The notes under the pieces were generated by a model that saw only the letters and a program-made list of their open reading frames with translations, did not search any database and was not told the origin of the DNA. This document shows positions 3,490 to 60,421 of a DNA stretch of 64,000 nt, one piece after another (positions within the stretch are counted from its first letter, which is position 1; each line of letters begins with the position of its first letter). Both the position numbers and the translations under genes were made by a program. Source of the stretch: Eledone cirrhosa (taxonomy: Eukaryota); assembly GCA_964016885.1 (NCBI GenBank), contig CAXHJY010000046.1, positions 1 to 64,000 of the forward strand. The letters are read 5' to 3'.

Positions 3490-6320
3490 TCAGTTCACAA
3501 ATACCCCCCCCTCTCATTGTTATAACAGTTCACAGATACACCCCACCTCATTGTTATAACAGTTCACAGATACCCCCCAATTTCATTGCTATAACAGTTC
3601 ACAAATACCCCCCCACCTCATTGTTATAACAGTTCACAGATACCCCCCCATCTCATTGTAATAACATTTCACAAACATCCCCCACCTCATTGTTATAACA
3701 GTTCACAAAAACACCCCCCATCTCATTGTTATAAAAGTTCACAAAAACACCCCACCCCCCCATCTCATTGTTATAACAGTTCACAAAAACACCCCCCCCC
3801 CCATCTCATTGTTATAACAGTTCACAAATACACCCCCACATCTCATTGTTATAACAGTTCACAAATACACCCCCACATCTCGTTGTTATAACAGTTCACA
3901 AATACACCCCCCATCTCATTGTTATAACAGTTCACAAATACACCCCCTCTATCTCATTGTTATAACAGTTCACAAATACACCCCCCACCATCTCAATGTT
4001 ATAACAGTTCACAAATACACCCCCACATCTCATTGTTATAACGGTTCACAAATACACCCCCACATCTCAGTGTTATAACAGTTTACAAATACACCTCCAC
4101 GTTTCATTGTTATAACTGTTCACAAATACAAACACCCTCCTTCGCATTGTTATAACAGTTCACAAATACACCCCCTCCATCTCATTGTTATAACAGTTCA
4201 CAAATACACCCCCACGTTTCATTGTTATAACAGTTCATAAATACACACCCCCATCTCATTGTTATAACAGTTAACAAATACACCCCCCCATCTCATTGTT
4301 ATAACAGTTCACAAATATACCCCCACATCTCATTGTTATAACAGTTCACAAATACCCCCCCCCCCATCTCATTGTTATAACAGTTCACAAAAACACACCC
4401 CATCTCATTGTTATAAAAGTTCACAAAAACACCCCACCCCCCCATCTCATTGTTATAACAGTTCACAAAAACACCCCCCCATCTCATTGTTATAACAGTT
4501 CACAAATACACACCCACATCTCATTGTTATAACAGTTCACAAATACACCCCCACATCTCATTGTTATAACAGTTCACAAATACACCCCCCATCTCATTGT
4601 TATAACAGTTCACAAATACACCCCCTCTATCTCATTGTTATAACAGTTCACAAATACACCCCCCACCATCTCAATGTTATAACAGTTCACAAATACACCC
4701 CCACATCTCATTGTTATAACGGTTCACAAATACACCCCCACATCTCAGTGTTATAACAGTTTACAAATACACCCCCACATTTCATTGTTATAACTGTTCA
4801 CAAATACAAACACCCTCCTTCGCATTGTTATAACAGTTCACAAATACACCCCCCCCATCTCAATGTTATAACAGTTCACAAATACACCCCCACGTTTCAT
4901 TGTTATAACAGTTCACAAATACAGCCCCCCATCTCATTGTTATAACAGTTCACAAATACACCCCCTCCATCTCATTGTTATAACAGTTCACAAATACACC
5001 CCCCATCTCAATGTTATAACAGTTCACAAATACACCCCCACATCTCATTGTTATAACAGTTCACAAATACACCCCCCCTCCATCTCATGGTTATAACAGT
5101 TCACAAATACACCCGCTCCATCTCATTGTTATAACAGTTCACAAATACACCCCCACAACTCATTGTTATAACAGTTCACAAATATACCCCCACAACTCAT
5201 TGTTATAACAGTTCACAAATACACCCTCACGTTTCATTGTTATAACAGTTCACAAATACACCCCCCCTCCATCTCATTGTTATAACAGTTCACAAATACA
5301 CCCCCTCTATCTCATTGTTATAACAGTTCACAAATACACCCCCCCCCCATCTCATTGTTATAACAGTTCACAAATACACACCTCCATCTCATTTTTATAA
5401 CAGTTCACAAATACACTCCCTCCATCTGATTTTTTATAACAGTTCAGAAATACCCCCCCCCCCCATCTCATTGTTATAACAGTTCACAATACACCCCCCA
5501 ATCTCATTTTTATAACAGTTCACAAATACCCCCCCGCATCTCATTGTTATAACAGTTCACAAATACACGCCCTCCATCTGGTTTTTTATAACAGTTCACA
5601 ATTACCCCCCCCCCCAATTCAATGTTATAACAGTTCACAAATACCCCTCATCTCATGGTTATAACAGTTCACAATTACCCCCCCCCCCATCTCATTGTTA
5701 TAACAGTTCACAAATACACCCCCTCCATCTGATTTTTTATAACAGTTCACAAATACACCCCCCCCCATCTCATTGTTATAACAGTTCACAAATACACCCC
5801 CCCCATCTCATTGTTATAACAGTTCACAAATACACCCTCTCCATCTAATTTTTTATAACAGTTCACAAATACACCCCCCCCATCTCATTGTTATAACAGT
5901 TCACAAATACACCCCCCCATCTCAATGTTATAACAATTCACAAATACACCCCCCCCCTATCTCATTGTTATAACAGTTCACAAATACCCCCCCCCCATCT
6001 CATTGTTATAACAGTTCACAAATACACACCCTCCCATCTCATTGTTATAACAGTTCACAAATACCCCCCCCCCATCTCATTGTTATAACAGTTCACAAAT
6101 ACACACCCTCCCATCTCATGGTTATAACAGTTCACAAATACCCCCCCCCCTCCATCTCATGGTTATAACAGTTCACAAATACCCCCCTCCATCTCATGGT
6201 TATAACAGTTCACAAATACCCCCCCCCCTCCATCTCATGGTTATAACAGTTCACAAATACCCCCCCTCCATCTCATGGTTATAACAGTTCACAAATACCC
6301 CCTCCCCCCCAATCTCATGA
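3490..6320. repeat. Minisatellite, ~36-41 bp unit ACAGTTCACAAATACA(C)nCATCTCATTGTTATA
   Basis: Roughly 70-80 tandem units with a constant ATCTCATTGTTATAACAGTTCACAAATAC part and a variable oligo-C tract. Confidence 0.97.
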
Positions 6321-6946: not shown

Positions 6947-6951
<5 letters not shown>

Positions 6952-7379
6952 GACGTAAAATAAAAAAATATAAAAAAATATTTTTTTAAAAAAAATTTAA
7001 AAAAAATTTTTTTCTTACTTAAATTTTCACTCCAACTAATTAGTTTCTGCAATGGGATAAAGACAGTTACGTAATTCAACTGTCGAGAATTCATTGCGTC
7101 ATCAGGAAGTCTATTCTCAGTTAAGTCTCCAGGCAATGCGCGGACACTGGCGGCTCATATAAAAATAATAATAATTCGGTAGATCGAACAGCTTGCGAGG
7201 ACTGAATTCTATGTACCGAAATTCTCACTGCTTCAAGTCAAATGGCCGATTCTAAAGAATCAATCACGTGACACAGAGGCTAGTTAGAAGGAATGGGATG
7301 GTAAGATGACTGACGCCTACTAACAAAAATTTTTTTTAAATTTTTTTTAAAAAAATATTTTTTTATTTTACGTCCTTTA
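6947..7379. mobile_element. MITE with ~65-bp A/T-rich terminal inverted repeats at the edge of a (TA)n tract
   Basis: TAAAGGACGTAAAATAAAAAAATA ... TATTTTTTTATTTTACGTCCTTTA, flanked by TA, no ORF inside. Confidence 0.75.
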
Positions 7380-7739
7380 TATTATTGTTCTGCATTCTCC
7401 TGCATTGAACCACCTAGGTACTATGACATAACCTGTGTATTTGCTGGCATGGGCGTGCATCTGTGCGCTTATGTTAGTTGATATATTAAATTATCTATAT
7501 ATATATATATATATATATCAATATGTATATATATATATGTATATACGTATATTTTATATGTTGTTAAATTTTATAATTTTTATTATTTTTATAATTTTTG
7601 AAAGGTATCTCTGCATGTCCTTTCTTACTGTATATATGTGTACGTATTTATTATCGTGATCGTGTGTCTATGATTTGTTTTTTATGTGCATATGTGTTTG
7701 TTTTTTAGTATGTATGTGTATGTATGTGAGCGTACCTTC

Positions 7740-10549: not shown

Positions 10550-11685
10550 ATACTGGCAGCATATAGCCAAGTACAACCTGTAACATGTTGAAGCCATTGG
10601 TGACTAAATCGGCAACCCACCCAGCTCCCTTAGTGAGGAAGGTGACCTTTTCTTGGACGAAAAGCAAAGCCCGAGGTGGAGGAATTCAGGATAGAGACAA
10701 AGCCAGCCAGGTCTCTTTATGTATAACATTTTATATAATTTTATCTGTCGATCCTGTTTGAGCTGATCATACGGATCTAGATGATATCCTCGGAAAGAAA
10801 ACTCCTTTATCTTTACGGGTGGTTGTAGTTCTTGTGGCGATCATCGACAGACAGATGTTTTTGCAAAGAGAAGACAGCAGCTTTGCTGATGATCATTTCA
10901 ATTGACAACGAAAAGGTGTACTGCTGCAGTTAGCGGAGGGCCACACATGTATTTAGCCAGTGTATGTGTGTGTGTGTGTGTGACAGCTCACACCTATGCA
11001 GGTTTAGCTAGCCTCCTCCAAGGTATATCTCGTTGGAAGTGTCTTGGGTAATTTAATGATAGGGATCCCAGTCCTATCATCTCATTTCTACAGCTGAGTA
11101 AACTGGAGCAACGTGAAATAAAGTGTCTTGCTCCAGGAAACAACACATCACCCGGTCCGAGAATTGAACTCACAACCTTTCGATTGCAAGCCTAATGCTC
11201 TAACCACTAAGCCATGCGCCTTCCCATTTATTTAGAATAAATGATTTAGCCAGTAGAATAAGAATGATGAAGTTTAACTATAGCACCAAGGTTAAAGCTC
11301 TTGTCAATCAGCCATTCATGTGGTCACACAATGCTGTCCCTGCAGCCAATCTTGGGTCTGACCTCAATCCTTTGGAATGGTTGATCTCCGATGACAACAC
11401 AAACTGCATCATCACAAGCTGAACTCTATAAATTCACGTATGACTTCATCTATGTAAAAAGCATTCAAGAACATCGTTTTGTACATCCTCACTCTGACAC
11501 AGAAGCTGCAGCGCCAGCTTGGAACTACAACTCCTTACTGCATCTACTGTTTGAAATGAATGTGAGAACCCGCTGGAAGGATCTTTTGAGGACTCTACCC
11601 CAACGAAGAAGAAGAAGAAGAAGAAGAAGAAGAAGAAGAAGAAGAAGAAGAAGAAGAAGAAGAAGAAGAAGAAGAAGAAGAAGAA
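10550..11685 (+). mobile_element. Fragmented RTE-type LINE derivative (5'UTR piece, APE remnant, 3' end with (GAA)n tail), interrupted by a SINE
   Basis: 10550-10680 is homologous to the RTE 5'UTR at 37140-37280; IQEHRFVH APE motif near 11460; (GAA)n at 11605-11685. Confidence 0.45.
11075..11221 (-). mobile_element. tRNA-derived CORE-like SINE (family B)
   Basis: Reverse complement GGCGCATGGCTTAGTGGTTAGAGC (A box) ... GAGTTCAATTC (B box) ... GAGCAAGACACTTTATTTCACGTTGCTCCAG (CORE-like). Confidence 0.8.
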
Positions 11686-22409: not shown

Positions 22410-23628
22410 TCAACGTAATCGAATAATTGCTTGATTGACGGCCACCCAGTTCTCTTTCTGCTGAGGAACTGCTTCGCCATGCCGAAGCTCCTCTATACAC
22501 TCCGCAGCGCTCCATGATACACCCAGACATCTCTCCTCGCTGACCTCGATACTTGTATCCGAGCAGCAATCGAGGGGATATGTATCGTCAAGTTTGACGA
22601 CATAGGTTGGCAACAGGCCACTTTACCGGTCAGGTATGGCGGCCTAGGCCTCCGGTCCCCGATCTCACTAGCTTTGCCGGCGTATCTTTCGTCGGTAACT
22701 TTGTGCCGCGTCCTCGTCAGCTGGGTTCTTCAAAACACAACAGAACCCTCTATATTCAGAGAACGTGAGGCGGCCTGTGAGACGTGGGACCGGCTGGGAG
22801 TTAGCCCAGTAGACGTCCCTCCTGCTTCTCCCCCTGTTGACGTCAAGTCCCCCCAACGCATTTGGGATGCCATCCAGTGCAGCCTGGCCTCAGACAGGCT
22901 CACGCGTCAGCTCGACCAGCACCGCCTTGCTTATTTTCGTGCGGCCTCCAAACCCCACAGTGGTGCCTGGCTCCATGCTCTGCCCTCCTTCTCCACTGGC
23001 ACGCAGCTAGACAACCGTAGCCTGCGAATCGGCGTTTCCCTGAGGCTCGGCCTCCGGATCTGCCAGCCACACCAATGTCGCTGCGGCTCCACCGTGGACT
23101 CTTTCGGCCTCCACCCGCTTTCATGTCGCCACAGTTCCGACCGCATTCCACGCCATACTGCCTTCAACGAGGTCATTAAGCATGGGTTGGACGCTGCAGG
23201 CTTCCCTTTCCACCTCGAGCCGGTGTAGCTGGATCGAGGAGACGGCAAAAGGCCAGATGGCATGACCATCTTCCCGTTCCGCGGTGGCAAACCCCTCGTC
23301 TGGGATACCCCTTGCACCGACACTTTCTGAAGCCGCAACCTGCTGCAGTCTGCGACTGACCCAGGTTCTGCTGCACGTCGGGCTGAGGAGGTCAAACTCT
23401 TCAAATATCGGTCGCTCTCCGACAGGTTTGCGGTCGTTCTCCTGGCAGTGGAAACTTCTGGTGTCCTCGGCCCCATGGCTACCTCCTTACTCACCACCAT
23501 AGGCACTGAGCTGGCCAGCCGCAGGTGTGAGCCCCGCGAGTTGGAGTGGCTTTTCCAGAGGGTCTCCCTTGCCGTCCTCCGGTGAAACGCCTTCTCCATT
23601 CTGTCAACCAGGGCTGTGGGTGGGCCTC
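22410..23628 (+). mobile_element. 5'-truncated CRE-clade non-LTR retrotransposon (RT thumb, zinc knuckle, restriction-like endonuclease), with stops
   Basis: [60 protein letters not shown] and LFQRVSLAV.R.NA. Confidence 0.85.
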
Positions 23629-33297: not shown

Positions 33298-36200
33298 ATG
33301 GCTGAACACAACATCAACAACAAAATTAAGGAAGTATCGAAGACAAACAACAAGAAAGGTAAACGAACTTTATTCAGTTGTAGCTACAGAAGAAACCGAA
33401 ATTATAAATCGCATTTCTCTTGGAGTTATGAACTTAATAATGATTTATTTAATTGTTATAAAATGGCAAAAAACAATCCCTCCATTGGCTATATGAATAG
33501 AATGAAGCTACACTGGGACGAAATACACCCAGAGCTAAATTATTTCACGGCGAGGCAATTACGCCAACAAGCGACGTTTGTTGAACGTAAAAATAAGATA
33601 AATAATATTAATTGTAAGTCCCCCACAACAAACATGTTATCAAAAACATGTGCTACAGGTCGCCATGCTACTAGACTTCCTAGCAGCCAGGTCGAACAGC
33701 GCCTTGAAACAACTATGCCTGTAAGAAACTTGACACCACCTGTACCATCAAAGTCTACCTCGAATGCTGGGGAAAACACTATCGATAATAATAATTGTTT
33801 CTACTTTAGGCACAAGGCCAGCAATTACCCAGTGCATTACTGGTACTTTATTTTATCGACCCCGTAAGGATGAAAGGCAAAGTCAACCTCGGCGGGATTT
33901 GAACTCAGATCGTAAAGGGACGTAACTATGCTGGAAAGCATGGCGTCCGACCCTCTACCGATACTGCCAATCCACCAATAATAATCGAAGAAATTTGACA
34001 CCACATGTACCATCCGAGTCTACCTCGACCGTTGTGGAAAATATTATTGATAATGATGATAATCAAAAGTATAAACAATTGAACATTTCCCTCAACGTAA
34101 TCTTCCAGAGAGAAATTAATTCATGTATAAATATTTCTCTTGCTGAACGTATTAAAACGACAATGTTTCATAAAAAACCAAATAATGAAACATTACGTGT
34201 TATTGACGAAATAGGGGATGGATATTTACGACGGATAAAAACCCCAACATTCTGGCAAATCAACGCTTGTTTATATGCCTTACCAACGAGAGTGAAGCAT
34301 TATCTTGGTGATAGCAGAGATATTAACAAGAACAGAACACCACAAAAAATACCATCATATATAACTAAAATAGAAAAAAAGATTGCTGACCTACGAAAAA
34401 CCATAGGATATGTGACAATGCTCCTTACGTGCAAACAAACACAAAAAAACCTCACTCCTTACCAACAAAACTGCGATGTCGGAGGTGCGACAACTTAGGA
34501 GGAATATGGCTACAGTCTGGCTGGACTACAGGAAAGCTTTCGATTCTGTTCCCCGCTCTTGGATGATAGAGGCCCTCCAACTTGCTACAGTTCCAGACAT
34601 TATTGTCAGAGCCATAGAGAGGCTATCTTCTTCTTGGGCTACTATCCTAAGGTTAAAGACAGAGAGGGAGGACTCTATTTTCACTGATAAAATAAAATAT
34701 CGCAGGGATATATTTCACGGGGACAGTCTCTCTGTGATATTATTCATCTTGTCATTAAACCCCTTGTCCTTTCTGCTCAAGAAATGTGAGAGATACATCA
34801 TTGGCTCACAGGAGGACAGAAATAAGAACCTAACCCATAATTTCTTTGTGGACGATCTGAAACTCTATGCCAAGGACATGGATGGGATGAAGAAAAATCT
34901 TGACCTTGTTACAACGTTCTCAAAGGATATAGGAATGGAGTTTGGCCAAGATAAATGCTCATACATGACTGTAAAGCGGGGAAAAACAATAACCCAATCT
35001 AGTAACATTGTTATCAATGGTCTAACTGTTTCACCGATATCTGATGAGGACTGCTACAGATACCTGGGGATAGATGAGAACATATCCTATAATGGTATCT
35101 GTAATAAAGAACGCGTAACCAGGGAATACTACACCCGATTAAGAAAGATCTGGTCATCGTAACTCTCTGCGCCAAACAAAACAGTCGCTCACAATGTGTT
35201 TGCTGTGCCTGTCCTAACACCAACGTTTGGAATACTTATTTGGACGATAGACGAAATCCGAGCAGTTGATGTTGGAACTCGAAAAATACTGAACAACACC
35301 GGAAACTTCCACATCAACAGTGACATAGACCGCCTTTACTTGAAACGTAAGCAAGGAGGCAGAGGCCTAACATCAGTCCAGACAACATTTGAATGTCGCA
35401 TCATATCTCTCCGACAACATCTATGAATCTCGAAGCGTAGGAGCCCGCTTCTCGAGCAAGTCTATCTGCATGAAACAGATAAGATCATGAGAGTTGGGAA
35501 AGAACTCCTTGAGAGATATTCCCTGTGTGATAATCAAAAACTCACACCCAGGGAAGTCGCTCAGCGGTATCGCAGTGAATCCATGGATGAAAAACTGCAT
35601 GCCTATCAGCAAAAAACCTTGCATGGATATGTTGCCAGGAAGCTCCAGAGTGAGAGTAATATAGATAAGGAAAGTAGTCTATCTTGGACCAACAACCGCT
35701 ATATTGGCTCCCACTTTGAAGAATACACTTTTGCAATCCCAAAACACGAGATTAACACGAAATACCTGATTCACAAAAGTGATAGGGATGCAGAAAAAAC
35801 ACCTAGTTGTGATAACAAGTGCAGACTCTGCAGAACTAACATCGAGGATATCACCCATGTCATCAGCAGCTGTCCAAAGGTGTCACGCGGTACTATCTAC
35901 CTAAGAGGCATGATGAAGTAGCCAAACCACTGTACAATGCAGTTTGTAAAAAAGATAGCCCCGATAATAAACACATTAAAAACTACAGCAATGTGGAAGA
36001 CATCCATGTACATAATATGAAAGAGTACTGGTGGAATGTTCCAGTAAAAACCCCAATAAAATGCAGGCATAACAGACCAGATATTATGATATGGGACAGA
36101 GAGAAGAAAGCATGCACAATAGTGGAAATTAGCTGCCCAGCAGAAACCAATATAATATCAAAGATTAGTGAAAAGGAGAATATTTATGCAGAACTGATGA

Positions 36201-37649: not shown

Positions 37650-37943
37650 AAGGAAGTTATGACGACGAGTGTTTCAGTTGTTTCGATCAATGGAACAGCC
37701 TACACGTGAAATCAACGTGCAATTGGCTGAACATTCCACAAACACGCGTACCCTTAATGTGGCTCTCAGGGAGATTCAGCGCGACACAGAATCTGACAAG
37801 GCTTTACTTCGAATTACAGGTACAACTCAATTTTGCCAGCTGAGTGGACTGGAGCAACGTGAAATAAAGCGTCTTGCTCAAGGACAGAGCACGCCGCTGG
37901 GAATCGAACTCACGGCCTTGCGATCGGGATTCAAATTCCCTAA
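37650..37943 (-). mobile_element. SINE family B, near full length
   Basis: B box GAGTTCGATTCCC; CORE-like CCTTGAGCAAGACGCTTTATTTCACGTTGCTCCAGTCCACTCAGCTG; (TATG)n tail. Confidence 0.8.
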
Positions 37944-37945
37944 CT

Positions 37946-38047
37946 AAAATCACCGGTTCTTGTCCAATCACCGAAGTTAAGCAACGTCGAGCCTAGTTAG
38001 TACTTAGATGGGAGACTGCTTGGGAATCCTAGGTGCAGTAAACATTT
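37946..38047 (+). pseudogene. 5'-truncated 5S rRNA pseudogene (retrocopy)
   Basis: CACCGGTTCTTGTCCAATCACCGAAGTTAAGCAACGTCGAGCCTAGTTAGTACTTAGATGGGAGACTGCTTGGGAATCCTAGGTGCAGTAAACATTT closely follows metazoan 5S; roughly the first 20 nt are missing. Confidence 0.9.
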
Positions 38048-54728: not shown

Positions 54729-55832
54729 ATAAAACATAGCTAAATATTTGGAAAGTCTCCTCAAGAAATGCAAAAAAAATTATATAAATATAGATGAAGG
54801 TAATACAATAGACATATAAAATATATAAACAATTTTTTAAGAAATATAGTTAGGTGTGTGTATATGTATGTATATACACTCACAGATGTACATATGTATG
54901 TATGTACAAATGTGTGTGTATAGTGAAAATGTGTGCGTAAATATATATATGAGGGTAAGTATATCTGTGTATATGTAACTACAGACACAGACATGATAAG
55001 AGTTGACAGGTATACAGAAAAACAGGGTATTAGATACATTATAAGAATATGAAGGCACGCGTATAAACACACACACACGCGCGTACACTTATATGCGGAA
55101 GAAAAAGAGGTAAGGGAGTGTAATAGTAAAAAGAAAGTATCATTCTAGATATATTTATAAAAATGGAACAATAATTTAGAAAGAAAAATAATTGCGAAGT
55201 AAAGAAAAGAAAACAAACAAGGTACACGCGTACATACACACATATATCTATAAGAAACGTATATCTATAAAAAATATATATACATACACGCAATACGTGT
55301 AGACAAAAGCGTATGCAAATATACATACACACACAGGATGCACATATATATATACATACACCTCACCCCATGTATATCTAATCACGCGTACGTACGCGAC
55401 TGTATACTCACACACACATACACACACATAAATATATACATACATATATACATACGCACACTTACACATCCATGCATTCAGTACGTACACACACACATAC
55501 ACACACACATACATACACTCACGCACGTTGACCCGCTTAGATGCACAGAAATAAAAATAAGAATGTAAAAAAAATAGATGTAAAAACACAGATATAAAAA
55601 CACACATACATACACATATATATATGCACGCACGCGCGCGCACACACGGAGGCGTTCGTGTACATATACAGAAAGTATACACACATAAGTACGCTCAGAC
55701 ACATAGATACAGGGTGTAAAAACGGCCTTGTGAATAAGTGAGTACAAATATAAAAATTGGCTGCGAAATAACAGAAAATATCTGGAGTGGAAGACGCAAG
55801 TGACATGTATGATCAGGTAGTGAAAGCCTTAA

Positions 55833-55919
<87 letters not shown>

Positions 55920-55949
55920 TAAGGCTTTCTCTGTTTATGTATTGAAATG

Positions 55950-56046
<97 letters not shown>

Positions 56047-56049
56047 GTG

Positions 56050-56104
<55 letters not shown>

Positions 56105-56376
56105 GGAAAAATGAAACGAAATTTCATTTCTCACTCTTAGTACGGCTGTTACTTAAATATAGGTATGTATGCGTACATACATATATGTATACAGACGTAC
56201 AGTAGTATGTATATATATATACATGCACACATATATATATGTACGTATGGATTCACCGAACATTTATTATAATGCTCGGTGTGTTTGTAAACAAACATCC
56301 CGAATTAAGCCGTACAGTGTCTAGCAACCATCGTTGCTTATTTGTTCAACACTGACAAAGCAACGCTGTAAGGAAT

Positions 56377-56415
56377 GCTGTACTAGTTTCAAGCTTATTA
56401 GCTATCGTCAGCAAC
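56377..56415 (-). ncRNA. Type I hammerhead ribozyme motif
   Basis: GTTG-CTGACGA-T-AGCT/AATA/AGCT-T-GAAACTAGTA-CAGC. Confidence 0.75.
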
Positions 56416-56747
56416 GTATACCTTCCTGCCATATGGTTGAACGTCCGAAAGTATATACTTTCCTTATGTATATTAACGGTTGAGTAGCCTAATTTGCATA
56501 TCGAGTGAGTTAATCGGCCGGGGTACCGAAATCGATAAACGGAAATAATGAAACGAAAGTAGTATGTATATATATATACATACATGCGCACATATATATA
56601 TATATATGTACGTATAGATTCACCGAGCATTTATTATAATGCTCGGTGTGTTTGTAAACTCGATATGCAAATTAGGCTACTCAACCGTTAATATGCATAC
56701 GGAAAGTATATACTTTCAGACGTTCAATCATCTGTCAGGAAGGTATA

Positions 56748-56788
56748 CGTTGCTGACGATAGCTAATATGCTTGAAACTAGTACATCG
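56748..56788 (+). ncRNA. Type I hammerhead ribozyme motif
   Basis: CGTTG-CTGACGA-TAGCTAATATGCTT-GAAACTAGTA-CATCG. Confidence 0.7.
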
Positions 56789-56987
56789 TTCCTTTGTCAG
56801 TGTTGAACAAATGAGAAACGATGGTTGCTAGACACTACGGCTTAATTCGGGATGTTTGTTTACAAACACACCGACCATCATAATAAATGTTCGGTGAATC
56901 CATACGTACATATATATATATATGTGTGCATGTATTTATATATATATACATACTACTGTACGTCTGTATACATACATGTATGGACGT

Positions 56988-57081
<94 letters not shown>

Positions 57082-58859
57082 GTAATAAACGAAAGATATA
57101 TACTTTATATCATCTGTATTTTATTATATATATATTTCGAAGATGCATAGTTTTATGTATAACATAAACCAAAACATGTCCTCTACAGACAAAATACATA
57201 CGAGATGTATAATGTTGTTCATATGCTGGTAGACCAACGAGCTGGACAGATATATATATATATATATATGTAGAGAGAGAGAGAGAGAGAGAGAGAATGG
57301 TGAGTGAGTGAGAGATAACTCTCTGTGCAGTGCTGGGAGTGATGTTGTCGGTAGTGAAGGGGCAAGTATGTGTATTATATTTACACATCTTTAGTTACTT
57401 TGAAACTGTTACTATTGTTGCTAAGGAAATGGTCTTGTTGGTATTACAAATTAGTTGTGACTTTCTTCTTCCGTCTTTTCCTTTTTCTTTAGAAATTTAC
57501 GTTTCATTTTCTTCCTTTATTGATATCGATAGGGGGTGTATATTTCTCAAGAAACATGGCGTAATAAAAGTTTAACATGGGAGAGAAAATAAACAAATCT
57601 CTTCATGAAAGTTGATATAATTATAATGTTTCTGCCGGGAGCATATGAAGAAACCGTTAATTAGATCGAAGGATGAAATGAACACTATCTCTTCTTCTTC
57701 AGTTATTACAATACAGAAAACTCATTCGGCAATCAATAATTCGGTTTCTTTATTTATTTGTTTCTCTAATTAACATGTGCCTATATAGCATCCTGTTAGA
57801 GCCTCTGTATGTCCACTCACCCTGTTCCACATAGCAACCCACCATCGTAAATCGTGTGGGACACATATGGTGATGTAGTCCACGGAACACACTGTCTAAA
57901 AGGACTGGATAGTCACGACAGGAGGGTCATGGTCTTTCGTTATTGGTCTGCTAGAAATAACAGAGCCGAAGCTTATTCCTCAACTGACACCTTACCACCT
58001 TAAAATGGATTAGAACACTAGGCCTAAAAAGGTCAGGTAGTCATTGCGTGTGCGTTTCATTAAAGAAATAGCAGTCAAATTTTCTTCCTCCGATCATAGC
58101 TTGCCGTCTTTGACAAGTTTAATCAGCACTACATTATTAAAACCACACGTGTTTTACACAACCACAGATGCAAGTACTACTTGGACACATCATTAGTGTT
58201 ATATCACAGAGTCACTGGTTCTTTCGGGTCTTACAAGATAGTCACCATCATCCAGGAGACCTGACAACAAGACACATGATCGGTGTTGCATCCTGGAGTC
58301 ACTGGGTGTTTCGGATCTTATGTCATAGACCCTCAGTCAAGTGATCCAACTACAAGAGAAGTAAGACAGGCACATTGGTAAAATAATCCAGGAAAAACAA
58401 CTATTAGACATGTAACAAGCGCGAAATGGGTATAGCTGAAATAGCTGTCACCATATGTCTGCTTCATTAGAACCGGTGTAGTGTAATATAACAATAACCT
58501 AAGGCCTTCCATCCTAGGGCTCAACCCATTTCAACTAGCTATAAAGTCTCCCTCTGCAAAATCAATTCTATATTGTGAAAAGGGATTGCTTTACTGTAAT
58601 GTATGTTAAACAAAGGACAATATAATCTGCACAATATAGATAAAAGACAAAGCTAGGTAACGTTGATTGTAATGTTTCTTTGATCGGTTGTCTCCATACA
58701 TTAATAGATCAGTGTTTCCAACATAGTTTACAAAGAGAATTGAATAGAAACAAAAGCTAGCATTTCTTGATATGTCCAGTGGATATTAAATTAAGTAGCT
58801 TGACTACTTGTTGTAGAATTATAAAGCTATATATATATATATGTGTGTGCGTGTATATA

Positions 58860-58954
<95 letters not shown>

Positions 58955-58961
58955 ATATATA

Positions 58962-59025
<64 letters not shown>

Positions 59026-59039
59026 TATATATGTATCTA

Positions 59040-59110
<71 letters not shown>

Positions 59111-59144
59111 GTATGCATATATATATATATATATATACATATGA

Positions 59145-59600
59145 GTATGTATGTATACGTACATATATATATGTATACAGACGTACAGTAGCATGTATAT
59201 ATATACATACAGGCACATATATATATATGCACATATCAGTTTACCGAACATTTATTATAATGCTCGGTTTGTTCGTTTGTAAACAAACAAACAGCCTGAA
59301 TTACGCCGTACAGTGTTTAGGCAACCACGTCACCTTTTTGTTCAACACTGACACAGGAACGATGTACTAGTTTCAAGCTTATTAGCTATCGTCAGCACCG
59401 TATACCTTTCTGCCAGATGGTTGAAAGTCCGAAAGTATATACTTTCCTTATGAAAATAACGGCTGAGCAGCCTAATTTGCATATCGAGTGAGTTCAGTCG
59501 GCCAGGCGCACCGAAAACGATAAATGGAATAGAATGCTACTGTACGTCTGTATACATATATGTATGTACGTATGCATACATACTTACATTTAAGTCTGAC
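59145..59600 (-). mobile_element. Third copy of the hammerhead-containing unit, with a short inverted tail (59537-59600)
   Basis: Colinear homology to 56160-56545. Confidence 0.75.
59360..59400 (-). ncRNA. Type I hammerhead ribozyme motif
   Basis: CGGTG-CTGACGA-TAGCTAATAAGCTT-GAAACTAGTA-CATCG. Confidence 0.75.
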
Positions 59601-59749
59601 TGAATAAAAAATGGCGTAGACATACAACACAACAGGAGGAAAACATAACACCACTGACAATGTTGCAGATGTGCAACGAAAGATTTAATTTAGGTAAATT
59701 ATGTAAACTATATATATGTGTTTATGTCTATATTGTATCTGTAATATTT

Positions 59750-59899
59750 TTGACCGTAGGTCAGTCAATGGCAACATTGAGGACCGAGTAAGCTAGATTA
59801 CAGATATAAAAGACAGCGAGAAGCGAAAACCAACCAAACAGTGAGTGTGTTCTGTTATTAATTCTGGCAATATTACACAAATATGACCCTCCCCAAGTA

Positions 59900-59903: not shown

Positions 59904-59938
<35 letters not shown>

Positions 59939-60421
59939 CGAAGGAAATGTGGTAAGGAACCAGGTGGACCATAACGCACCAAAGTACTCAATACTTGAGG
60001 TAGTAGAGTGGGTAATAGGAACCAGTAAGACCCCGACAGCTCGGCTTGAGCTCAGCTGTCGGGGTCTTACTGGTTCCTATATATATATATATATATATAA
60101 CAAAGGAACCAGATGGTAAGGAACCAGATGGTAAGGAACCAGATGGACCATAACACACCAGAGTACTCAATACTTAGCGTAGTAGAGTGAGAAATAGGAA
60201 AATGTATGACCCAGCCACCCCTACCTCCCACCAAATGGCATGATAGACTTATTTTTGTTTACAACAAATTTTAACCAATCCTCTTGACAACTACAATCTT
60301 CCCATATAAGGAAGTACCCCTTGACAAGTTCGGCTATTTACTCACCAGGCCCAAAATTCTAATTTAGTCCAGAAATAGCCGTCGAAACGGCTTGAGCTCT
60401 GCCGTCGGGATCATGCTTTTT

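What the first reader, a model, noticed from the sequence alone, without database searches (positions are those of the whole stretch)
56102..59600. Candidate retrozyme family: ~430-nt structured non-coding unit with a type I hammerhead, in tandem and inverted copies within (TA)n
Seen: the unit restarts at ACGGAAA(T)AATGAAACGAAA (56102, 56539), flips into an inverted copy (56658-56990) and recurs at 59145-59535 with a short inverted tail. All three long copies keep CUGACGA..GAAACUAGUA exactly, while the central helix I position varies (U-G, U-U, G-U). The unit has further hairpins (CACCGAGCATT/AATGCTCGGTG, GAAAGTATATACTTTC, TGTTTG/CAAACA) and no credible ORF. Established: metazoan non-LTR retrozymes are tandem few-hundred-nt hammerhead repeats that yield circular RNAs and are proposed to use Penelope RT. 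Inference: a self-cleaving, circular-RNA-based mobile element; I do not know of a description of this family, and a solo PLE pLTR is the main alternative.
Basis: partly seen in the sequence, partly recalled or inferred. Interest (0 to 1): 0.75.

Follow-up and report, generated by a model that had tools for sequence, protein, structure and literature searches.

The report
Self-cutting RNA repeat riding Penelope enzymes
A 430-base non-coding repeat with a predicted self-cutting RNA motif occurs tens of thousands of times in this animal genome, and the two fixed end points of its back-to-back insertions suggest that it is likely pasted in by a borrowed Penelope-type enzyme, probably copying a small RNA circle; it is a new member of a known kind.

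Summary
Observation confirmed. The three copies belong to a dispersed family with a 429-nt consensus unit, no ORF, a strongly folded predicted circle (z -10.6) and a type I hammerhead core. The exact core occurs 9,768 times, and 34,800 times with sister subfamilies. None of 114 mapped insertions is the terminal repeat of a Penelope-like (PLE) ORF, so a solo pLTR is unlikely. The insertions carry the PLE footprint: variable 5' truncation, inverted arms, (TA)n targets and two fixed 3' ends about 59 nt apart. In 36 of 38 two-armed insertions each arm uses a different end. About 95% of copies read through the cleavage site, so the template was not a cut linear monomer: a circle is likeliest, an uncut multimer the main rival. 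Cleavage, expression and circles are untested; no RNA run was listed. The driving PLE is unidentified, and I found no RNA-editing signature. Verdict: a non-LTR retrozyme, new member of a known kind. This scan noted the same pattern before on other DNA, including what appear to be the 422-nt and ~467-nt sister subfamilies.

The parts
56099..56534 (-). Insertion 1, left arm: one full unit (consensus 1-429), 3' end at the distal fixed site E2, running into (TA)n; carries a 12-nt duplication after the cleavage site
   Evidence: 93.7% to consensus
56535..56659 (-). Insertion 1, left arm: upstream partial unit (positions ~407-429 joined to 231-326, ~80 nt missing)
56658..57001 (+). Insertion 1, right (inverted) arm: positions 29 to ~370, 3' end at the proximal fixed site E1, running into (TA)n
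56375..56417 (-). Type I hammerhead, copy 1; predicted cut between 56381 and 56380; helix I weakened by a C-A mismatch
56747..56789 (+). Type I hammerhead, copy 2; predicted cut after 56783; U-U in helix I, one helix II pair lost
59146..59533 (-). Insertion 2, left arm: positions 1-367 plus a few bases of the previous unit, 3' end at E1 in (TA)n; another subfamily, 87% to consensus
59359..59401 (-). Type I hammerhead, copy 3; predicted cut between 59365 and 59364; best-paired helix I of the three
59534..59595 (+). Insertion 2, short inverted arm (positions ~319-376)
59596..59899 (+). 5'-truncated 3' end of a different, protein-coding PLE family (GIY-YIG-like frame upstream in other copies), joined directly to the short arm
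55832..56101 (.). (TA)n target run left of insertion 1
56990..57078 (.). (TA)n target run right of insertion 1
58828..59145 (.). (TA)n-rich target run left of insertion 2

Best explanation
This is an ORF-less, high-copy repeat of about 430 nt with one type I hammerhead core per unit, inserted at (TA)n as 5'-truncated, often two-armed arrays with two fixed 3' ends, and it is likely a non-LTR retrozyme: its transcript is predicted to cut itself, probably as a hammerhead dimer, to close into a circle, and to be copied into DNA by a borrowed Penelope-like reverse transcriptase-endonuclease. Inferred steps: the enzyme nicks both strands of AT-rich DNA; each end primes on the RNA at a different one of two sites 59 nt apart (unit positions ~370 and 429, both ending in TAT); each copy runs through the cleavage site, sometimes for several rounds; the two copies join head to head. 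Shown: copy number, absence of an ORF, architecture, fixed and alternating ends, read-through of the cut site. Inferred: the PLE enzyme (strong), cleavage (moderate), circular template (about even to likely).
For: Exact 32-nt core 9,768 times, reversed control 0; 34,800 with sister subfamilies at up to 2 mismatches. 47 full units, 412-481 nt, 90-99% to consensus; circular fold -146 against -93+-5 kcal/mol for 60 shuffles, helices I and II formed and the core free. The central helix I pair stays paired in 58 of 60 sequences through G-U 21, U-G 20, A-U 15, two others. Of 114 insertions 51 are divergent two-armed; of the 38 with both ends assignable, 36 have one E1 and one E2 end (p 5e-9); 116 of 144 E1/E2 ends have (TA)n within 20 nt. 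Three RT + GIY-YIG families of this genome also have two fixed ends 41-63 nt apart. A purified PLE extends both strands and starts at two internal sites that bound the 'tail' (PMC11167929). A pattern just downstream of the cut occurs 35,852 times, one spanning it 34,122 times. 86 of 168 arms exceed one unit. Units and opposite arms of one insertion agree at 92-93% of subfamily-diagnostic sites against 64% between insertions, while rare changes are mostly unshared, as expected if arrays were made at insertion. One 9-bp target duplication (L101). One direct inverted junction to a PLE GIY-YIG fragment (L027).
Against: No cleavage, transcript or circle was observed. The hammerhead joins a U-U at the base of helix II with a helix III of one pair and a palindromic loop; such axolotl ribozymes cut 6-22% in an hour as monomers (PMC7229834), and 8 of 9 frog retrozyme dimers did not cut. 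Rfam does not detect it. 93 of 114 insertions have one hammerhead per arm and could not release a monomer. In vitro, uncut RNA was the main PLE substrate. A young nine-hammerhead array is a mosaic (one private change in 8 of 9 units, another in 6 of 7 units of one arm only), not the clone a single circle would give. Only one pair shows a two-sided change and the sequences were picked by the core pattern, so core conservation is partly built in. No PLE 3' region examined shares sequence with the unit, so neither parent nor driver is identified.
Confidence: 0.6

Rival explanations
1. Same non-autonomous, PLE-mobilised element, but the template is an uncut linear multimer transcribed from tandem source loci; the hammerhead cuts rarely and serves mainly as structure.
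For: Weak hammerhead anatomy. Uncut RNA is the main substrate of a purified PLE, and hammerhead mutants insert normally. Read-through of the cut site fits equally well. Mosaic variants in a young array. Most arms are short: 13 of 168 exceed two units.
Against: Arrays can only shorten by this route, yet young arrays of 5-7 units persist in several subfamilies. The whole unit folds as a closed branched structure. Related animal retrozymes accumulate as circles (PMC7229834).
Confidence: 0.3
2. The copies are solo pLTRs or 5'-truncated ends of an autonomous PLE that I did not sample.
For: Identical insertion footprint. PLE 3' ends lie upstream of some copies in the same sense (L006, L009). The genome holds many PLE families: 10,596 GIY-YIG candidates, 150 scored.
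Against: Upstream of a full unit lies another unit, not an ORF. No shared ORF-to-unit junction among 63 5' flanks; the upstream PLE ends finish at their own terminus and a TA run. The unit occurs in 2 of 40 GIY-YIG loci, 1.3-2.9 kb beyond the ORF and past those elements' own 3' regions. 0 of 114 gives an upper bound near 3%.
Confidence: 0.07
3. A minisatellite or DNA-level rolling-circle repeat that spreads without RNA, with a relic hammerhead.
For: Some arrays were duplicated after insertion (L109 units 1/3 and 2/4 share changes; L022). It contains and sits in TA microsatellites.
Against: Fixed 3' ends with scattered 5' ends, alternating ends in two-armed copies, a target duplication and dispersal over many chromosomes. 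Rare changes are mostly unshared within arrays.
Confidence: 0.03

Closest known systems
Metazoan non-LTR retrozymes (Cervera and de la Pena 2020, PMC7229834; parts 2-4 of 6 read)
   Same: ORF-less tandem unit with one type I hammerhead, GC under 50% (37%), highly paired predicted circle with a free ribozyme core, coexistence with PLEs. Helix III matches axolotl HHR_Amex1 (one pair, palindromic tetraloop); the U-U at the base of helix II matches HHR_Amex2.
   Different: Slightly longer than the 170-400 nt quoted for invertebrates; both weakening features in one ribozyme; mostly short, dispersed, 5'-truncated and two-armed insertions rather than long arrays; RNA untested here.
Non-LTR retrozymes as non-autonomous PLE derivatives (Li, Clavereau, Pollet 2026, bioRxiv 10.64898/2026.07.22.740005; parts 1-3 of 5 read)
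   Same: Same proposal of mobilisation by PLE machinery; the unit length lies in their 51-972 bp range.
   Different: Their evidence is co-occurrence and pLTR homology in frogs, and they favour local tandem amplification after insertion. Here no pLTR homologue was found; the evidence is the insertion footprint, which points to arrays made at insertion.
EN+ Penelope-like elements: inverted pLTR and one-sided tail (PMC8557442 and PMC3846280, passages; PMC11167929, parts 1-2 of 4)
   Same: 5' truncation, partial tandems, inverted 5' copy, tail at one end only, AT-rich targets, two RT start sites.
   Different: No RT or GIY-YIG ORF; tail ~59 nt rather than 30-40; arms can hold several whole units. 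PMC11167929 saw no difference in start site between strands, whereas the two arms here almost always use different sites.
Non-autonomous Chlamys elements such as MRC1 (PMC8557442, passage)
   Same: Non-coding PLE dependants with multicopy head-to-tail insertions.
   Different: Those generally resemble an autonomous family at the 3' end, and most Chlamys lack a canonical hammerhead; here there is a hammerhead and no matching autonomous family was found.

Membership tests
Non-LTR retrozyme | Type I hammerhead core and topology in each unit | tested here: met
   by descriptor and pairing, not detected by Rfam
Non-LTR retrozyme | Short unit in head-to-tail repeats with two or more consecutive hammerheads | tested here: met
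   21 of 114 insertions have 2-5 hammerheads in one arm; arrays of 6-7 in sister subfamilies. The two window insertions have one per arm.
Non-LTR retrozyme | No ORF, no LTR/PBS/PPT organisation, low GC | tested here: met
   PBS and PPT were not searched separately
Non-LTR retrozyme | Highly self-paired predicted circle | tested here: met
   z -10.6, 70% paired; TA-rich palindromes contribute
Non-LTR retrozyme | Self-cleavage of the transcript | not testable with these tools
   needs in vitro transcription
Non-LTR retrozyme | Expressed as linear and circular monomer RNA | not testable with these tools
   no RNA holder listed; laid runs were contigs of unknown kind
Non-LTR retrozyme | Target duplications longer than 4 bp when present | tested here: inconclusive
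   one 9-bp case seen by eye (L101); the automatic search of 114 gave two doubtful candidates and missed L101; TA flanks hide the rest
Autonomous EN+ PLE (pLTR) | Unit flanks an RT + GIY-YIG ORF | tested here: not met
   0 of 114 insertions
PLE-type insertion | 5' truncation, partial tandem, inverted 5' copy | tested here: met
PLE-type insertion | Tail between two fixed 3' ends, present on one arm only | tested here: met
   36 of 38; ~59 nt
PLE derivative | Sequence similarity to the pLTR of an autonomous PLE | tested here: not met
   none among the families sampled; sampling covers a small part of the genome's PLEs

The most novel reading that the evidence does not exclude
The roughly 35,000 hammerhead copies are the genomic record of rolling-circle reverse transcription of a small circular RNA by a dimeric Penelope-type enzyme whose two halves start at two different fixed sites and extend the two ends of one DNA break. 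That would demonstrate the proposed retrozyme life cycle and an asymmetric twin-priming mechanism for PLEs, in a parasite that shares no sequence with its driver and may use more than one PLE family.
Probability: 0.35. Interest if true: 0.7.

Novelty: new member of a known kind. Interest (0 to 1): 0.45.

Why it matters
Two papers propose that animal retrozymes are moved by Penelope-like enzymes from circular RNA, but in the parts I read neither shows it from insertion structure. This family supplies a countable footprint: alternating fixed ends and read-through of the cut site. It also supplies a short defined template with two predicted start sites, usable in the in vitro PLE assay that now exists. 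At about 35,000 cores it is roughly 0.5% of this genome (estimate: cores x 430 nt / 3.0 Gb) and probably sits in repeat annotations as unclassified. The class itself is known, which caps the surprise.

Tried and rejected
Expression: no RNA holder listed; four runs laid were contigs of unknown kind and say nothing on RNA, strand or ends. RNA-editing scars, a lead from earlier notes: no sense-strand A>G excess at non-polymorphic, non-CpG sites (73 of 9160 against T>C 64 of 9249, p 0.44); A>G was 4 of 19 variants shared between opposite arms. A mild G>A over C>T excess (p 0.04) is unexplained. Pile-up of 5' ends at the cut site: 1 of 161 breakpoints, but that sample was chosen by an intact core, so the genome-wide counts carry the point. 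Identifying the driver by tail length: 41-44, ~62 and 43-47 nt, and ~48 or ~60 nt read by eye, against ~59; not decisive. The PLE-adjacency count (112 of 114) was an artefact of a query containing the unit's own translation; (16 of 114 within 1.5 kb) corrected it but left out one PLE family, which one search added, and one search added a library entry that was empty. Many 'Hyd2' matches are other repeats inside that entry. Single-copy folds of 66-76 nt were no better than shuffles (z -0.64 to 0.44). Rfam matches in the region are TA-hairpin noise.

Full report
Observation. The region holds three long copies of one unit, 82-89% identical pairwise. Each has the hammerhead core, with 0 matches in 100 shuffles. 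Read in hammerhead sense, 56099-56659 is a minus-strand arm (one full unit plus an internally deleted partial one), 56658-57001 an inverted plus-strand arm, and 59146-59595 a second insertion with a long minus arm and a 60-nt plus arm. Both lie in (TA)n runs. Rfam finds no hammerhead; a descriptor scan does.

Family. The window lies in a 3.0-Gb genome; earlier notes call it a cephalopod, which I did not test. The exact 32-nt core occurs 9,768 times, reversed control 0, and a relaxed pattern 34,800 times. From 108 stretches I took 47 full units; the consensus is 429 nt and 37% GC. The stretches were the 29 best BLAST loci, first-listed core matches from the first 42 Mb of C1, and the window, so they favour intact hammerheads. 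Sister subfamilies are a young 420-426-nt form, 95-96% identical, and a 456-538-nt form, 82-84% identical. The longest Met-started frame is 72 codons.

RNA anatomy. As a circle the consensus folds at -146 kcal/mol against -93+-5 for 60 shuffles, with helices I and II formed and the core unpaired. Helix II is 4 bp on a U-U base; helix III is a six-base palindrome that cannot close well within one molecule but pairs between two (-6.8 kcal/mol for the 8-mer). In PMC7229834 the two axolotl ribozymes show these features separately, cut poorly as monomers and better as dimers. On 60 of 141 available sequences, 97% of cells in the named structure pair; one pair changes on both sides (G-U 21, U-G 20, A-U 15) and most others vary little. 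This is modest support, since the sequences are related and were chosen by the core.

Not a pLTR. The genome is rich in RT + GIY-YIG elements; the clade labels I use (Neptune-, Poseidon-, Hydra-, Nematis-like) rest on recalled motifs, not on a tree. Their 3' regions carry their own hammerhead-like motifs and do not match the unit. Of 114 insertions, 16 have a PLE protein match within 1.5 kb, in mixed orientations. No two of 63 5' flanks share an ORF junction, apart from the duplicated pair in L101 where the array interrupts a PLE frame in antisense with a 9-bp target duplication. Where a PLE 3' end lies upstream in sense (L006, L009) it finishes at its own end and a TA run. In loci fetched for PLEs the unit appears in 2 of 40, 4 of 30 and 2 of 30, three of these being loci already in the sample. 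A rare parent among the unsampled copies is not excluded.

Insertion footprint. 3' ends cluster at two sites, unit positions ~370 and 429, both ending in TAT and running into (TA)n; 5' ends are scattered. Among 51 two-armed insertions, 38 have both ends at these sites and 13 have one end elsewhere; 36 of the 38 have one of each (p 5e-9). One-armed insertions split 31 to 24, with 4 elsewhere. The window's first insertion follows the rule. Three autonomous families here also have two fixed ends. This is the inverted-copy-plus-one-sided-tail pattern of PLEs (PMC8557442, PMC3846280), which PMC11167929 traces to two internal RT start sites of a probably dimeric protein that cuts and extends both strands.

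Template. A self-cleaved linear monomer would stop the RT at the cut, 215 or 275 nt from the start sites. Instead a 28-nt pattern starting at the cut occurs 35,852 times and one spanning it 34,122 times; the 5% gap includes ordinary truncation. 86 of 168 arms exceed one unit, 13 exceed two. Within an insertion, units and opposite arms share subfamily alleles (1319 of 1421 and 1065 of 1154 sites, against 64% between insertions) but differ by 30-34 rare changes per kb, like unrelated copies at 35. So the arrays were mostly made at insertion from one kind of template. A circle explains this simply; an uncut multimer also does, and fits the weak ribozyme, the in vitro preference for uncut RNA and the mosaic young array L194. 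I found no editing signature in this subfamily.

Driver. Two junctions hint at shared machinery: L027, where the unit's 5' end abuts an inverted GIY-YIG fragment with no gap, and the window's second insertion, whose short arm runs straight into the 3' end of another PLE family. They involve different families and either could be a later nested insertion. Unresolved.

Literature. Seven searches listed no description of this family. I read parts 1-3 of 5 of the 2026 preprint (31 vertebrates, three insects, one coral), parts 2-4 of 6 of PMC7229834, parts 1-2 of 4 of PMC11167929, and passages of PMC8557442, PMC3846280 and PMC6962438, which only counts 235 hammerheads in the giant squid. I saw no supplements; those of PMC7229834 and the preprint, and Repbase or Dfam, may hold related families. 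Earlier notes of this scan describe the same architecture in 310-, 422- and 467-nt units of this genome and in other genomes; a sequence look-up found none, and I match the 422- and 467-nt notes to my sister subfamilies by length only.

Verdict. A real, young-to-moderately-aged non-LTR retrozyme family with a clear PLE-type footprint: a new member of a known kind. Confidence about 0.9 that it is a non-autonomous element moved by PLE enzymes, 0.6 for the full model with cleavage and a circular template. Interest 0.45.

Noticed in passing
window 59938-60420: Another TA-flanked repeat with fold-back junctions; 70 matches in 48 fetched loci, many 100% identical over the first 104 nt, so very young. 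No hammerhead found by my descriptor.
   Followed up: partly
window 6950-7380: Repeat with inverted ends and a hammerhead-like core on the minus strand at 7105 (6-bp helix II with a long loop, palindromic helix III); 27 matches in 13 loci.
   Followed up: partly
window 59596-59899; L245-L255: 3' end of a protein-coding PLE family whose 3' region has a hammerhead-like core opening with the same eight letters as the retrozyme's; it has ends about 48 and 60 nt beyond the first.
   Followed up: partly
3' regions of L051, L052, L056, L059, L060, L062: An abundant PLE family (938-codon open frame in L051) has a hammerhead-like fold in which the C3-G8 pair is replaced by U-A, with a palindromic helix III (read by eye).
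   Followed up: no
L054, L055, L058, L066 3' regions: PLE hammerhead with the same architecture as the retrozyme's: U-U at the base of helix II and a six-base palindromic helix III, but a different sequence.
   Followed up: no
L101:2773-5896: A PLE fragment carrying an antisense retrozyme array, with an inverted copy that includes part of the array; it suggests the composite was retrotransposed again as a passenger.
   Followed up: partly
window 3491-6307: 37-bp minisatellite, about 75 copies.
   Followed up: no
window 37939-38034 and 11157-11214: 5S rRNA-like and tRNA-like fragments, probably pseudogenes or SINE heads.
   Followed up: no
window 22518-23225 and 34416-35918: Open frames that look like fragments of LINE-type reverse transcriptases (by eye).
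   Followed up: no
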